Below, one piece after another: positions 20,658 through 29,868 of a DNA stretch of 64,000 bases. The notes under the pieces were generated by a model. That model worked only from the letters and a program-made list of their open reading frames with translations, was not told where the DNA came from and ran no database searches. Each line of letters starts with the position of its first letter. The stretch's first letter is position 1. This DNA is from an uncultured Chitinophagaceae bacterium (GTDB lineage Bacteria; Bacteroidota; Bacteroidia; Chitinophagales; Chitinophagaceae): positions 218,123 to 282,122 of the forward strand of contig CAVWQJ010000005.1 of assembly GCA_963756945.1 (NCBI GenBank), written 5' to 3'. The position numbers were made by a program, and so were the translations under genes.

Positions 20658-22893
20658 ATGGAAATAACATTTGAAACTGCCGAAAAGCTGGGTCTCACAA
20701 AAGATGAGTTCGATAAGATTGTTCAAATTCTCGGACGAACGCCCAATTTTACAGAACTCAGTGCCTATTCAGTGATGTGGAGTGAACACTGCAGTTATAA
20801 GAATTCAATAAAATGGCTGAAAACTTTGCCCCGCGAAGGTTCTAAACTTCTGGTGAAGGCAGGTGAGGAAAATGCGGGACTCATGGATATCGGCGATGGC
20901 TGGGGAGTAGTGTTTAAAATTGAAAGCCATAACCATCCATCTGCGATTGAGCCTTTTCAAGGTGCGGCAACGGGTGTAGGTGGAATACACAGAGATATAT
21001 TCACAATGGGGGCCCGTCCAATTGCCTCTTTAAACTCCCTGAGATTTGGGAAACTTGAGCATGAAAAAACGAAACACTTGTTAAGTGGAATTGTTCACGG
21101 AATAGGCCATTATGGTAATTGCTTCGGTGTGCCGACTGTTGGAGGCGAGGTATATTTTGAAGATTGCTATCATACTAATCCATTGGTAAACGCCATGAGT
21201 GCCGGAGTCGTTCGTTTAGGGCATACCGTTAGTGCCACCGCCGTCGGGGAAGGAAATCCGGTTTTTATTGCCGGCAGTGCAACTGGTAAGGATGGAATGG
21301 GGGGTGCTGCATTTGCTTCTGCAGATATAACTGAAAATAGCATGGAAGACCTCCCGGCTGTACAGGTGGGAGATCCTTTCCAGGAAAAAAAACTGTTGGA
21401 GGCTTGTCTTGAAGTAATTGCAACCGGTGCTGTTGTGGGTATGCAGGATATGGGTGCGGCAGGCATTATCTGCTCAACTGCAGAAACCAGTGCTAAGGGT
21501 GGCGTAGGAATGAATATTCATCTTGAAAAAGTTCCCACCCGTCAAAAAAAATCTGCAGGTGGTGCAACAGGCATGAAAGCCATGGGAACTATTGCTAAGT
21601 GAAAGCCAGGAGAGGATGCTGTTGACAGTTCAAAAAGGAAGAGAAAAAGAAGTAATTGATATATTTGAGAAATGGGACTTGCCTTGCTCGCAGATTGGTG
21701 AAGTTACTTCGGGCAAAATGCTTCGTTTTTACATGAATGATTTGCTGGAAGCAGAAATACCTGCAGAAAGCCTCGTACTTGGCGGCGGGGCGCCTGTATA
21801 TGACAGGCCGTATAAAAAACCAGCCTATTTAGAAAAAAATAATGCATTTGATATAAATAGTATTCCGGTTCAGGGAGATCTAAAAACAATAGCGGAGAAA
21901 ATAATTACGCTTCCTAACATAGCTTCAAAAAAATGGATTTTTAATCAATACGACAGCATGGTTGGTGCGGCCAACTTAAATACGAATGCTCCGTCTGATG
22001 CAGCGGTTGTTGCTATCAAAGAAACTTCAAAAGCTTTAGCCCTAACTACAGATTGCAACAGCCGGTATGCATTTGCCAATCCATATGTTGGTTGTATGAT
22101 TGCAGTAAGCGAAGCGGCCAGGAATATAGTTTGTAGCGGCGGTTCACCGTTAGGTGTTACTAATTGTCTCAACTATGGTAATCCATACGATCCTGAAGTC
22201 TACTACCAGTTTGTAGAAAGTATAAAAGGAATGACAGAAGCCTGTAATACATTTAATACGCCTGTTACAGGAGGAAATGTGAGTTTTTATAATCAATCTC
22301 CCTCTGGTTCAGTATATCCAACTCCTACAATTGGTATGGTTGGGCTGTTAGAAGATTCCAATAATAAAATGACACTCGATTTTAAAAATGATGGTGATAT
22401 AATTTATCTATTGGGCCACATAAAAAATGATATTAATTGCTCTGAATACTTGAATAAAATATGTGGAATTGAATTTTCACCTGCTCCTTATTTTAATCTC
22501 GATGAAGAAGTTCGTTTACACGACGCAGTTAGTGACATGATTTCTGGAAAATTAATTGAATCTGCTCATGATATAAGCGAAGGCGGGCTTTTTGTAACTC
22601 TTGCTGAGTGTGGCTTTAACAGGCTGTTGGGCTTTAACGTTTCACAAAATAATGACATTATTCGCAAAGATGCTTTCTGGTTTGGGGAAGCCCAGGGTAG
22701 AGTAGTTGTTACTGTAAAACCTGGTAATATAGATAATTTTGAAAGCGCTTTGAATATTCCATTCCAAAAATTGGGAACGGTAACTTCACAGGAAATAATT
22801 ATTGACGGAAATAGTTGGAGGAGCATTAAAGAATGGAGCGAAAAATATGACAATGCTATCGGGAATAATTTTAAAAGCTATATGCCTGAATAA
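20658..22893 (+). CDS. purL: Phosphoribosylformylglycinamidine synthase subunit PurL; frameshift near 21580
   Basis: [18 protein letters not shown] in ORF1; [26 protein letters not shown] in ORF2; removing one base restores MK(A/P)[13 protein letters not shown]. Confidence 0.93.
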
Positions 22894-27445: not shown

Positions 27446-28003
27446 ATGAGATTAATGTACGTTTACTGTTTAATGGTAAAGAGTGCCAAATTTATTTTAC
27501 TAGGTTTATTTGTTGTTTTGTGCTCCTTCAAAGTTACATTAACCGCCCATGATAAATTAACCTGGATGAATATGAGTGAATTAAAGCAAAAAATGAAATC
27601 TGATCCTAAACCTGCCTTAATTGATTTATATACTAACTGGTGTTATTGGTGTAAAGTAATGGATAAAAAGACATATAATAACCCGAAAGTGATTGCTTAT
27701 ATAAATGATCACTTTTATGCCGTAAAATTAAATGCGGAAACTAAAGATACCATACATTGGAAAAATAGCTCTTACAATTATAATGAAACTTATAAGGTCA
27801 ATGATTTTACTATGTACGTAACATCAGGTCAACCGGGATTTCCAACAACAGTGATATTAACGGATGATCACAGCGATCCTATTTCGATACAAGGATTTAT
27901 GGAACCAAAGGAAATTGAACCTATTTTGAAATATTTTGGAGATGGGGCGTACAAAACGGAAAGTTTTGAGGTTTTTAAGACAACTTTTAAAGCATCATGG
28001 TAA
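27446..28003 (+). CDS. Secreted thioredoxin-like protein (DUF255/SoxW-like); start may be 27473
   Basis: Signal peptide, YTNWCYWCKVMD CxxC, VKLNAE, cis-Pro GFPT. Confidence 0.8.
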   Translation: MRLMYVYCLMVKSAKFILLGLFVVLCSFKVTLTAHDKLTWMNMSELKQKMKSDPKPALIDLYTNWCYWCKVMDKKTYNNPKVIAYINDHFYAVKLNAETKDTIHWKNSSYNYNETYKVNDFTMYVTSGQPGFPTTVILTDDHSDPISIQGFMEPKEIEPILKYFGDGAYKTESFEVFKTTFKASW

Positions 28004-28106
28004 AGCCCATGTAAAAATATTAAGAAGCTGCAATAGCGGTTTCAAACTCGGTTTTTCATAGGATATTGGATTATAACAGGGGTGGATTTCCATCCGGCCC
28101 CTTTTT
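27996..28106 (+). ncRNA. Candidate structured sRNA, copy 1 (overlaps the thioredoxin stop)
   Basis: Three hairpins, 34-nt invariant core and U-tailed terminator; covaries with copy 2. Confidence 0.65.
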
Positions 28107-28129
28107 ACTTTTATTTAGAAGTAGATTCA

Positions 28130-28161
28130 ATGCAACGTCTTGTGAAAAAATATCGACTTAG
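28130..28161 (+). promoter_or_regulatory. Putative ECF-type promoter ATGCAACG-N17-GACTTAG for sRNA copy 2
   Basis: -35 octamer identical to 3965 and 5914, same spacing; -10 is GAC rather than GTC. Confidence 0.4.
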
Positions 28162-28173
28162 ATTTTAAACCCA

Positions 28174-28286
28174 TATGGTGAGAATCATATCAAAATATTA
28201 AGAAACTGCAATAGCAGTTTCAAACTCGGTTTTTCATAGGATATTGGATTATAACAGGGGTGGATTTTTATCCGGCCCCTTTTTTT
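28174..28286 (+). ncRNA. Candidate structured sRNA, copy 2
   Basis: Ungapped paralog of 27996-28106 at offset 178; GNRA-capped 5' hairpin, perfect middle hairpin, terminator. Confidence 0.7.
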
Positions 28287-28421
28287 GTTAATTAAATCTC
28301 AATAAAATTTTATATACAACCTCTCAGCAAAAAATCAAGACTATAATATTAGATTCTCAGTGTTAAGATTTAATGGTTAAGATTTTTGATAATCCCGGGC
28401 TTCTTTTTAGTTGCCCGGTTT

Positions 28422-29702
28422 TTACATATCTCCTTTTTGTCCAAATCCTACCAGATCTGCCATATCCGGTATCTCATCGGCTTTATAGGCGCCTGCATCC
28501 AATTTCTTTTTAGTCTCTTCAAATGCACGAAGGGTAATCTCAGTGTCTTCATCAGTATGTGCGGCAGTAGGTATCAGGCGATAAATAATCTGGCCTTTTG
28601 GAATAACCGGAAAAACTACAACCGAACAAAAAATATTGTAGTTCTCCCTCATATCCATTACCATGTTGGTTGCTTCAGGTAAATCTCCTTTCATGTATAC
28701 AGGGGTTACAGGACTATTGGTTGAACCAATATCAAATCCTTTTTCTCTAAGACCACTCTGTAGTTTATTTACATTATGCCATAATTTTTCACGAAGTTCA
28801 GGCATGGTTTTCAGCATGTCCATTCTTTTCAGCATTCCCTCAACTACTATAAGAGGTAAACTTTTCGCAAAAATCTGAGAACGCACATTGTACCGCAAGT
28901 ATGTCATTATACTTTTTGGCCCGCTGATAAAAGCTCCTATGCTGCCCATACTTTTTACGAACGTGCTAAAATATAAATCAACACCATATTGGCATCCTTG
29001 TTCTTCATCGGCTCCAGCGCCGGTTGGACCCATTGAACCAAAGCCGTGTGCATCATCGATCAATAAACGAAAATTATATTTTTCTTTTAAAACGACAATC
29101 TCTTTTATTTTCCCCTGGTTTCCGCTCATTCCAAAAACGCCTTCAGTAATTAATAGAATACCACCTCCATTTTTATCTGCCATCTTCACAGCTCTTTGTA
29201 ACTGCTTTTCACAATCTTCAATATCGTTGTGCTTATATTTATAACTAAACCCAATGTGTAGACGCACTCCGTCAACAATAGATGCATGTGCTTCGCCATC
29301 ATATACGATCACATCATGCCGGTTTACCAATGCGTCAATACAGCTCATGATACCCTGGTATCCAAAATTCAGCAGCATGGCATCTTCGCGACTTACAAAT
29401 GCGGCAATAATTTTTTCAAGCTCTTCATGCATCGCGGTATTTCCACTCATCATGCGGGCTCCCATAGGGTTTCCCATTCCCCAATGCGCAGCGGCTTCTG
29501 TATCTATTTTCCTCGTTTCAGGATGGTTCACCAATCCTAAATAATTATTAAGGCTCCAAACAATTTTTTCTTTTCCTCTGAAGGACATTCTGCTTCCAAG
29601 TTCTCCTTCCAACTTTGGAAACGCAAAATAGCCATGAGCTCTCTCAACATGTTTCCCAATCGGTCCTCCATCTTTTATCATCTTTTCGAATACATCTACC
29701 AT
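28422..29702 (-). CDS. PLP-dependent alpha-oxoamine synthase, likely cysteate acyl-ACP transferase (SulA/CapB-like; start moved to MVDVF)
   Basis: GPIG..AHGYFAFPKLEG, WSLNNYLGL, MGARMMSG, DDAHG, STFVKS; resembles Bacteroidota SulA as I recall it. Confidence 0.7.
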   Translation of the reverse strand: MVDVFEKMIKDGGPIGKHVERAHGYFAFPKLEGELGSRMSFRGKEKIVWSLNNYLGLVNHPETRKIDTEAAAHWGMGNPMGARMMSGNTAMHEELEKIIAAFVSREDAMLLNFGYQGIMSCIDALVNRHDVIVYDGEAHASIVDGVRLHIGFSYKYKHNDIEDCEKQLQRAVKMADKNGGGILLITEGVFGMSGNQGKIKEIVVLKEKYNFRLLIDDAHGFGSMGPTGAGADEEQGCQYGVDLYFSTFVKSMGSIGAFISGPKSIMTYLRYNVRSQIFAKSLPLIVVEGMLKRMDMLKTMPELREKLWHNVNKLQSGLREKGFDIGSTNSPVTPVYMKGDLPEATNMVMDMRENYNIFCSVVVFPVIPKGQIIYRLIPTAAHTDEDTEITLRAFEETKKKLDAGAYKADEIPDMADLVGFGQKGDM

Positions 29703-29868
29703 ATAATTATTATTATTTCGTTGTGAATGTTGGCAAAAATACAGCAATAACAATTAGGAAATTTCACAGTAAAATATTACCCGGGATAAGATGGCAAATC
29801 AATTTGAAATGGCCGGTTACAGCATAAAAGAAGTAATAAAGAAATATTAAAATAGAATTTTTTCCCTT

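What the first reader, a model, noticed from the sequence alone, without database searches (positions are those of the whole stretch)
27996..28286. Tandem pair of structured small RNAs with covarying hairpins and an invariant core
Seen: two ungapped ~111-nt copies at offset 178, each built as hairpin 1, A-rich linker, hairpin 2, a 34-nt identical core (AAACTCGGTTTTTCATAGGATATTGGATTATAAC) and a terminator (AGGGG-TGGAT-loop-ATCCG-G-CCCCT-Tn). Over 28014-28102 there are only 4 differences. Two convert G.U wobbles to Watson-Crick pairs in hairpin 2 (GAAGCTGC-AATA-GCGGTTTC vs GAAACTGC-AATA-GCAGTTTC) and two lie in the terminator loop (TTCC vs TTTT). Hairpin 1 shows a true double compensatory change (C-G vs T-A), a G-C/G.U change, and a GAGA GNRA loop in copy 2. 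The wobbles work only on the + strand. Inference: these are paralogous sRNAs under selection for structure. Copy 1 overlaps the thioredoxin-like stop (3'UTR-derived?) and copy 2 may be independently transcribed. I do not recognise the family.
Basis: partly seen in the sequence, partly recalled or inferred. Interest (0 to 1): 0.85.

Follow-up and report, generated by a model that had tools for sequence, protein, structure and literature searches.

The report
FopS-like start-codon-blocking small RNA pair
These two repeats are conserved copies of a multicopy element of Chitinophagaceae bacteria that likely encodes small regulatory RNAs related to the FopS RNAs of gut Bacteroides, predicted to block translation by pairing over start codons, with a conserved predicted target in the mRNA of an outer-membrane barrel protein.

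Summary
In detail: two copies at offset 178, with four differences over 28014-28102. The conserved unit is the seed core plus terminator, not the whole 111 nt. It has 5 exact copies in this genome and occurs in 35 of 36 genus relatives and 16 of 21 family genomes. Its core resembles the start-codon-pairing seed of Bacteroides FopS/GibS sRNAs but scores 14.5 bits against Rfam's 56 cut-off, so it is a relative, not a member.

Hairpin 2 covaries; hairpin 1 is poorly conserved. Copy 1 follows a thioredoxin-like stop codon. Copy 2 follows an ECF-type promoter motif (19 of 20 loci). Other family copies follow sigmaA-, ECF- or sigma54-like motifs.

The best predicted target is a PorG-like 8-stranded outer-membrane barrel mRNA. 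Pairing across its start codon is kept in 16 of 19 other genera, against 1.5% of starts in this genome. A second candidate failed the same test, and susC genes are not enriched. Transcription and repression are untested.

Earlier scan notes found this family on other DNA. The target appeared in none of the notes my look-ups returned. New variant of a known kind.

The parts
27446..28003 (+). Thioredoxin-like ORF with a signal-peptide-like N-terminus (probable start 27473); likely parent mRNA of copy 1
   Evidence: PF03190, PF13899, PF13098; Trp-stop lies 35-47 nt before the copy-1 seed in 20 of 20 tandem loci
27996..28011 (+). Copy 1 hairpin 1; overlaps the last codons and stop of the ORF; weakly conserved
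   Evidence: 59% of cells paired
28024..28043 (+). Copy 1 hairpin 2, ending 6 nt before the seed; covarying
28050..28072 (+). Copy 1 seed core (23 nt), antisense to AUG-AAA-AA starts and the preceding ~13 nt; FopS R1-like
28078..28106 (+). Copy 1 intrinsic terminator (bulged G/C stem plus T-run); likely also ends the thioredoxin-like mRNA
   Evidence: not called by the strict scan, probably because of the bulge
28131..28158 (+). ECF-type promoter-like motif TGCAAC-N17-CGACT; start of copy 2 inferred near 28164-28166
   Evidence: (19 of 20 tandem loci); ECF assignment recalled, not from a call
28174..28189 (+). Copy 2 hairpin 1 (GAGA loop)
28202..28221 (+). Copy 2 hairpin 2
28228..28250 (+). 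Copy 2 seed core, identical to copy 1
28256..28286 (+). Copy 2 intrinsic terminator
28422..29753 (-). Convergent class I/II aminotransferase gene (context only)
   Evidence: PF00155

Best explanation
The two repeats are conserved copies of a Chitinophagaceae-wide multicopy seed-plus-terminator element that likely encodes FopS-like trans-acting small RNAs, predicted to repress translation by pairing across AUG-AAA start regions, with the mRNA of a PorG-like outer-membrane barrel as a conserved predicted target. Shown: the copies, their conservation, covariation of hairpin 2 and the terminator, likeness to the FopS seed, promoter-like motifs, and conserved complementarity in the barrel gene's start region. 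Inferred: copy 1 is cut from the 3' end of the thioredoxin-like mRNA, whose terminator it shares. Copy 2 is made as a ~120-nt RNA from an ECF-sigma promoter. Hairpin 2, held 6 nt before the seed, either shields the 5' end or sets a cut site that releases the ~58-nt short form made directly at the other loci. The seed then covers about -13 to +11 of the target mRNA and blocks ribosome loading, as shown for FopS-10 on susC. Different sigma factors at different copies would feed several signals into one seed to limit envelope-protein synthesis.
For: Five exact core copies in this genome, each followed by a terminator-like hairpin; a covariance model finds these and 2 diverged copies, plus one terminator-only match. 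DNA match in 35 of 36 genus relatives. Pattern in 16 of 21 family genomes, reversed control 0. One degenerate pattern over GTDB genomes returned two main words: 74 loci with this core (plus 1 variant), titled almost all Chitinophagales, and 47 with the FopS core; four of the five FopS-core loci scanned score 78-81 bits on RF04319. The FopS consensus shares 11 identical nt and the downstream UAUU-R-GAUU (PMC11697453 supplement file 3). RF04319 aligns end to end on copy 2. Hairpin 2: 7 of 8 pairs with two-sided change; 35 of 37 fold with z<-1.5 and 33 of 37 end 6 nt before the seed. Terminator: 6 of 7 pairs with two-sided change in 63 family members. Promoters: of 90 upstream regions 49 sigmaA-like, 10 ECF-like, 6 sigma54-like (shuffles 1.9, 0.0, 0.1). 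Target G000:C2:166664-167665(-): best of 4799 starts. Orthologues in 16 of 19 other genera pair at <=-17 kcal/mol vs 73 of 4799 starts here; UTR shuffles 0 of 200; tail shuffles 2 of 2000. Transitions fall where G.U rescues pairing (45 of 152 vs 6 of 53), and a second upstream site occurs in 13 of 19 vs 2.4% background. Controls: second-best candidate 0 of 23, neighbouring starts 2 of 50. The target is an 8-stranded barrel (pLDDT 89.7, OmpA-like) with a C-terminal Cys in 20 of 20.
Against: No transcript evidence: 8 RNA runs held only low-depth contigs of relatives, several running through the terminator. Rfam score 14.5 bits, E 9.1, against a cut-off of 56. Genome-wide, starts pair no better than internal ATGs (-10.2 vs -10.8) and the tail shows no excess over shuffles. 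susC starts are not enriched, unlike FopS. In this genome alone the top target is only marginal (score 20 vs shuffled maximum 17.7+-1.3); within the genus only 12 of 26 reach -17. The ECF motif is not enriched genome-wide (5 sites at spacing 17, 3-10 at other spacings). Promoter and upstream-site patterns were written after seeing the data. Genera are related, so p-values overstate. No intermediates were found in other orders. The target is below the PorG cut-off (83.7 vs 130 bits) and has at least four paralogous loci here.
Confidence: 0.72

Rival explanations
1. The RNAs are real but act mainly as protein-binding decoys, for example for an RRM protein like RbpB or for initiating ribosomes; the invariant core is a protein site and mRNA pairing is secondary.
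For: The core is invariant over 23 nt family-wide, longer than most seeds. The FopS 5' motif is the RbpB CLIP motif (PMC11697453 section 7). Two RRM_1 genes are in this genome. There is no genome-wide target excess.
Against: Conserved, G.U-tolerant complementarity in one mRNA family across 19 genera, absent in controls, is not predicted by a decoy role. The two roles can coexist.
Confidence: 0.12
2. The RNAs work like FopS but arose independently: selection to pair with AUG-AAA-AA starts produced a similar seed twice, with no common ancestor.
For: The shared 11-mer is the antisense of the commonest start here (ATGAAAAA, 335 of 4799). Terminators differ. No convincing intermediates in other orders: 21 pattern hits vs about 20 control hits in 201 class genomes; weak model hits were mostly bare terminators.
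Against: Likeness extends past the AUG complement into UAUU-R-GAUU, and the sigmaA box-seed-terminator layout is the same. This rival concerns ancestry only; the mechanism is that of the best explanation.
Confidence: 0.25
3. The element is a cis-acting DNA site or terminator module (repeated protein-binding site, REP-like unit or attenuator) that makes no trans-acting RNA.
For: No transcript shown. Copy 1's terminator is the natural end of the upstream gene.
Against: Most family copies are free-standing promoter-seed-terminator units with no gene between. Covariation keeps RNA pairing including G.U. The target sites vary in a G.U-tolerant way.
Confidence: 0.08
4. The core is the start region of a small minus-strand ORF (M-K-N-R-V here).
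For: The reverse strand reads like a Bacteroidota initiation region.
Against: ORF length ranges from 4 to 81 codons across copies with no common length; promoters and T-runs face the + strand.
Confidence: 0.02
5. Recent neutral duplication of a terminator region.
For: High identity of the two copies.
Against: The pair is present at the same place in 20 of 20 loci with diverged hairpins and spacers but an invariant core.
Confidence: 0.01

Closest known systems
FopS, family of paralogous sRNAs of Bacteroides thetaiotaomicron (Rfam RF04319; PMC11697453)
   Same: Multicopy; ~60-70-nt single-stranded 5' seed plus intrinsic terminator; 11 identical seed nt then UAUU-R-GAUU; many copies behind a sigmaA -7 box; one member 3'UTR-derived (FopS-14); seed antisense to start-codon regions of envelope-protein mRNAs.
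   Different: Two-base insertion after the shared 11-mer, no UAAGG extension, different terminator; 14.5 bits vs cut-off 56; Chitinophagaceae rather than Bacteroidaceae; copies also behind ECF- and sigma54-like motifs (FopS reported as all sigmaABfr); window copies carry covarying 5' hairpins; predicted target is a PorG-like barrel, and susC is not enriched.
GibS (Rfam RF04182; PMC7366714)
   Same: Same R1-type 5' seed; driven by a non-canonical promoter (PM2); pairs over start codons.
   Different: GibS is single-copy, ~145 nt, with a second seed R2 and hairpins after the seed; no RF04182 match on the window. I could not see the PM2 logo, so its relation to the motif here is untested.
sigmaE-dependent OMP-repressing sRNAs MicA, RybB, MicL of enterobacteria (recalled, no call)
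   Same: Functional analogy: ECF-sigma-driven sRNA predicted to repress an OmpA-like barrel at its start region; MicL is also processed from a longer 3'-end transcript.
   Different: No sequence relation (no Rfam match); those depend on Hfq, which Bacteroides lack (PMC11697453 discussion).

Membership tests
FopS (RF04319) | Score above the Rfam gathering cut-off (56 bits) | tested here: not met
   14.5 bits on copy 2; best 22.5 bits in the whole genome; four of five Bacteroidales FopS-core loci scanned score 78-81, the fifth 48
FopS (RF04319) | R1 seed (G-UUUUUCAUAG) shared with GibS | tested here: met
   11 nt identical to the published 70% consensus and to the FopS-10/GibS primers; aligned by the Rfam model
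FopS (RF04319) | 3'-extended seed R1' (UAUUAGAUUUAAGG) | tested here: not met
   Only UAUU-R-GAUU is kept, shifted by a 2-nt insertion; the rest is absent. The exact R1' boundaries are in a figure I could not see
FopS (RF04319) | [quoted passage not shown] | tested here: met
   Terminator covaries; the seed has only a weak invariant 4-bp helix and is nearly open in the centroid fold; the window copies add upstream hairpins
FopS (RF04319) | Many paralogues per genome (12-15) | tested here: inconclusive
   5 exact and about 2-3 diverged copies in a genome 80% complete; 1-6 exact copies in 16 of 21 family genomes; 9 in G628
FopS (RF04319) | Canonical sigmaABfr promoter directly before the seed | tested here: not met
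   Absent at both window copies; present at 49 of 90 other family copies
FopS (RF04319) | Pairs with susC/PUL initiation regions | tested here: not met
   None of the candidate starts listed for the 29 susC loci submitted pairs better than -14.0 kcal/mol (best at the 8th percentile)
FopS (RF04319) | Bound by the RRM protein RbpB | not testable with these tools
   Two RRM_1 genes are present; binding cannot be computed
FopS (RF04319) | Discrete transcript, induced by bile salts | tested here: inconclusive
   Only contigs of relatives in 8 RNA runs
GibS (RF04182) | R1 plus R2 seeds, ~145 nt, Rfam match | tested here: not met
   No RF04182 match at E<=10 on the window; the terminator follows the seed directly
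PorG (NF052316), for the predicted target | Score above cut-off 130 | tested here: not met
   83.7 bits, E 1.4e-23; none of 6 matches in the genome passes
PorG (NF052316), for the predicted target | 8-stranded OM barrel with a C-terminal Cys | tested here: met
   Model with 8 long strands, OmpA-like matches; Cys near the C-terminus in 20 of 20; PorG features from passages of PMC12365241

The most novel reading that the evidence does not exclude
An ancient Bacteroidota anti-start-codon sRNA family, older than the Bacteroidales/Chitinophagales split, has become in Chitinophagaceae a multi-sigma hub. One invariant seed is fired from sigmaA, ECF and sigma54 promoters and from a 3'UTR. Through two docking sites it sets the level of a PorG-like barrel that anchors the type IX secretion/gliding ring: sRNA control of T9SS/gliding and an Hfq-free counterpart of the sigmaE-MicA/RybB circuit.
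Probability: 0.3. Interest if true: 0.72.

Novelty: new variant of a known kind. Interest (0 to 1): 0.52.

Why it matters
FopS was described as conserved within Bacteroidaceae. A FopS-like family across soil and freshwater Chitinophagaceae would show that start-codon-covering multicopy sRNAs are a general Bacteroidota device in bacteria that lack Hfq. The conserved, G.U-tolerant site on a PorG-like barrel mRNA gives one concrete sRNA-target pair that a reporter and compensatory changes can test directly, and may tie an sRNA to type IX secretion or gliding. Copies behind different sigma-type motifs address the open question, raised in the FopS paper's discussion, of why bacteria keep many copies of one sRNA.

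Tried and rejected
1. Rfam: no match over the repeat in 6 kb; only sub-threshold matches in 321 nt.
2. RNA evidence: 24 runs listed, all with shares under 0.1; 8 of 24 were laid; all were contigs of relatives at depth 2-11 and show no start, end or strand.
3. Genome-wide target enrichment: none by duplex energy, tail shuffles or 6-mers. susC starts not enriched.
4. Second-best target (G000:C13:86560): not conserved, 0 of 23. The perfect-site pattern over 41 genomes mostly refound the sRNA loci; 11 other loci read gave no second recurring target.
5. True PorG of 5 Bacteroidales genomes shows no strong FopS pairing (best -15.4).
6. ECF regulon and cognate sigma: not identified. Passages read in PMC7826278 and PMC7366714 gave no matching motif. 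I did not check for rpoN.
7. Phylum-wide spread: model hits outside the family were mostly terminators (20 weak hits read); promoter+seed pattern was at control level. The three variant pattern hits outside the two groups look like antisense gene starts.
9. A single-sequence fold of the target was useless (pLDDT 30); no PDB sequence match.
10. One search used a structure that I had misregistered; it was redone.
11. Literature: no paper on this family in searches (the exact core words hit two unrelated papers); subscription papers are not covered.

Full report
OBSERVATION. The window holds two ungapped copies, 27985-28115 and 28163-28293, offset 178. They lie between a thioredoxin-like gene (27446-28003, +) and a convergent aminotransferase gene. 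Each has hairpin 1, an A-rich linker, hairpin 2, the core and a bulged terminator stem with a T-run. Copy 1 folds better on the + strand; copy 2 folds about equally on both.

THE CONSERVED UNIT. Core plus terminator, without hairpins, recurs at three more places in this genome (C2:126885+, C2:157647-, C14:20059-). A model built from 63 family members returns 8 matches: these five, two diverged copies (C7:78272, C34:53348) and one bare terminator. A DNA search hits 35 of 36 genus relatives and 1 of 24 genomes of other families of the order, the latter weakly. All 20 loci fetched (of 37 genomes with a match) carry the tandem pair behind the same gene end. A pattern search found the core in 16 of 21 family genomes, 5 of 379 others (two FopS-type, three that look like antisense gene starts), and never in the reversed control. 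Titled loci with this core are almost all Chitinophagaceae/Chitinophagales; a Hanamia locus (L122) has the same hairpin-bearing tandem form, which suggests that genus.

STRUCTURE. Hairpin 2 is real: 7 of 8 pairs show two-sided changes and 94% of cells pair. Of 37 distinct versions, 35 fold with z<-1.5 and 33 end exactly 6 nt before the seed. Hairpin 1 is only 59% paired. The terminator is near-invariant in the genus and covaries family-wide (6 of 7 pairs). The small helix inside the core never varies, so it says nothing. Hairpin-2 regions are more alike within a genome than between genomes (score 21.3 vs 16.0), though only 8 of 40 copies are closest to their own partner. Some concerted evolution is therefore likely.

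RELATION TO FOPS. Rfam gives no hit above cut-off, but RF04319 FopS aligns end to end on copy 2 at 14.5 bits (cut-off 56). In PMC11697453 I read the abstract, sections 7-10, 12-14 and 28, and a term search of the supplements; figures were not visible, so exact R1/R1' limits come from legends only. Its FopS consensus shares 11 nt exactly and, after a two-base insertion, UAUU-R-GAUU. Of five FopS-core loci scanned, four score 78-81 bits and one 48. My model also marks the 22 FopS-core loci tried at E 0.004-0.06, but these were picked by the shared pattern, so that is circular. I found no intermediates in other orders. It works like FopS by layout and seed; it is not a member by score, R1' or promoter; homology is likely but unproven.

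PROMOTERS. Of 90 distinct upstream regions of family copies, 49 have a sigmaA-type -7 box right before the seed, 10 a GCA(A/G)C-N15-18-(C/G)(A/G)(T/C)CT motif, 6 a sigma54-like motif and 25 none; shuffles give 1.9, 0.0 and 0.1. The patterns were written after seeing the data. The -7 consensus is from passages of PMC7366714; the ECF and sigma54 labels are recalled. TGCAAC-N17-nG(A/T)CT precedes copy 2 in 19 of 20 tandem loci (window 28131-28158). It is not enriched genome-wide, so no regulon or sigma factor was identified. Copy 1 has no such motif and starts at the stop codon of the upstream gene, like the 3'-derived FopS-14.

TARGETS. The seed is antisense to ATGAAAAA, the commonest start in my crude gene calls (335 of 4799). 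Of these 71% look like signal-peptide proteins against 19% of the rest, by my own heuristic; that reflects signal-peptide chemistry and does not prove targeting. Genome-wide there is no excess pairing and susC starts are not favoured. One start stands out: G000:C2:166664-167665(-), a 21-bp duplex of -21.3 kcal/mol over the AUG, only marginal in this genome alone.

The independent test is conservation. The protein matched 39 of 60 family genomes; I used the 19 best non-self loci as orthologues and set aside 10 weaker ones as probable paralogues, one of which (L243) also has the site. In 16 of 19 the start pairs at -17 or better, against 73 of 4799 starts here; shuffling the UTRs gives -11.4+-0.6 against -18.3 observed (0 of 200), and shuffling the seed's tail 2 of 2000. 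Transitions sit where G.U rescues the pair (45 of 152) more than where it cannot (6 of 53). Thirteen of 19 have a second upstream site matching both halves of the seed (background 115 of 4793; post-hoc pattern; this genome lacks it). In the genus 12 of 26 reach -17 and 22 of 26 reach -14; of 29 relatives found, one unpublished was left out and two gave no start. Controls: the next candidate 0 of 23, neighbouring starts 2 of 50, and distant paralogues in five genomes lacking the exact core 0 of 14, a weak control. Genera share ancestry, so the statistics overstate.

THE TARGET PROTEIN. It resembles PorG below cut-off (83.7 vs 130 bits) and PF13505. From a 56-row alignment it folds as an 8-stranded barrel (pLDDT 89.7) matching OmpA/OmpW, and it keeps a C-terminal Cys in 20 of 20. 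PorG of Porphyromonas is an 8-stranded barrel disulphide-linked to PorK through a C-terminal Cys (passages of PMC12365241). Here the gene lies one gene upstream of gldK-L-M-N (gldK and gldL named by sequence likeness and order). The genome has other PorG-like genes, so a T9SS role is a lead only. Bacteroidales porG shows no strong FopS pairing in 5 genomes.

MECHANISM. Shown: sequence, conservation, covariation, motifs, conserved complementarity. Inferred: transcription, processing, pairing, repression. Most likely copy 1 is released from the thioredoxin-like mRNA and copy 2 is made from an ECF promoter; hairpin 2 protects the 5' end or measures the cut; the seed covers the start region of the barrel mRNA, and probably of some other MKK-start envelope mRNAs, and blocks initiation, as FopS-10 does on susC in vitro. 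RNA-seq could not test this.

NOVELTY. Searches (listings only, beyond the papers named) found no description of this family; subscription papers are not covered. Earlier notes of this scan reached a FopS-like reading on other genomes, after I had reached mine; they are not independent support. None of the notes my look-ups returned names this target. Verdict: new variant of a known kind; interest 0.52.

Noticed in passing
G000:C2:157590-167665 (L217); also G004:C12, G021:C15, G018:C1, G002:C34: A dispersed copy of the sRNA lies about 9-10 kb from the predicted target gene, just after gldN here (order: PorG-like gene, uvrA, gldK-L-M-N, sRNA); the same spacing is seen in four genus relatives.
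   Followed up: partly
G000:C7:225224-225279 (L144): A perfect sigmaA -7 box followed by a FopS-identical 5' 13-mer, a different tail and a strong terminator; a similar unit occurs in another family (L183, G236). Possibly a sister sRNA.
   Followed up: no
G000:C34:53348-53404 (L175) and C7:78272-78330 (L173): Diverged paralogues with altered seeds but family-type terminators; the C34 copy follows a sigma54-like motif, and the C7 variant recurs in G061 (L188).
   Followed up: partly
L179, L180 (G067): A family genome with two copies of a variant seed and a different terminator; its PorG-like genes lack the site, so seed and targets may have shifted together.
   Followed up: partly
L369:301-355: One 236-kb IMG/VR contig carries a complete short-form copy with promoter box and terminator; the FopS paper also reports a phage-borne copy.
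   Followed up: no
window 20658-22893; susC loci: purL is split into two frames and many susC genes show frame breaks, which suggests assembly indels; gene calls and start statistics are noisy.
   Followed up: no
G000:C33:44581-45369 and C33:47756-47965: The best-scoring PorG-like gene of the genome lies 2.4 kb from one of the two RRM_1 (RbpB-like) genes.
   Followed up: no
window 28290-28400: The AT-rich stretch after copy 2 stays partly conserved in relatives and in metatranscriptome contigs; it may belong to the 3' end of the convergent aminotransferase gene.
   Followed up: no
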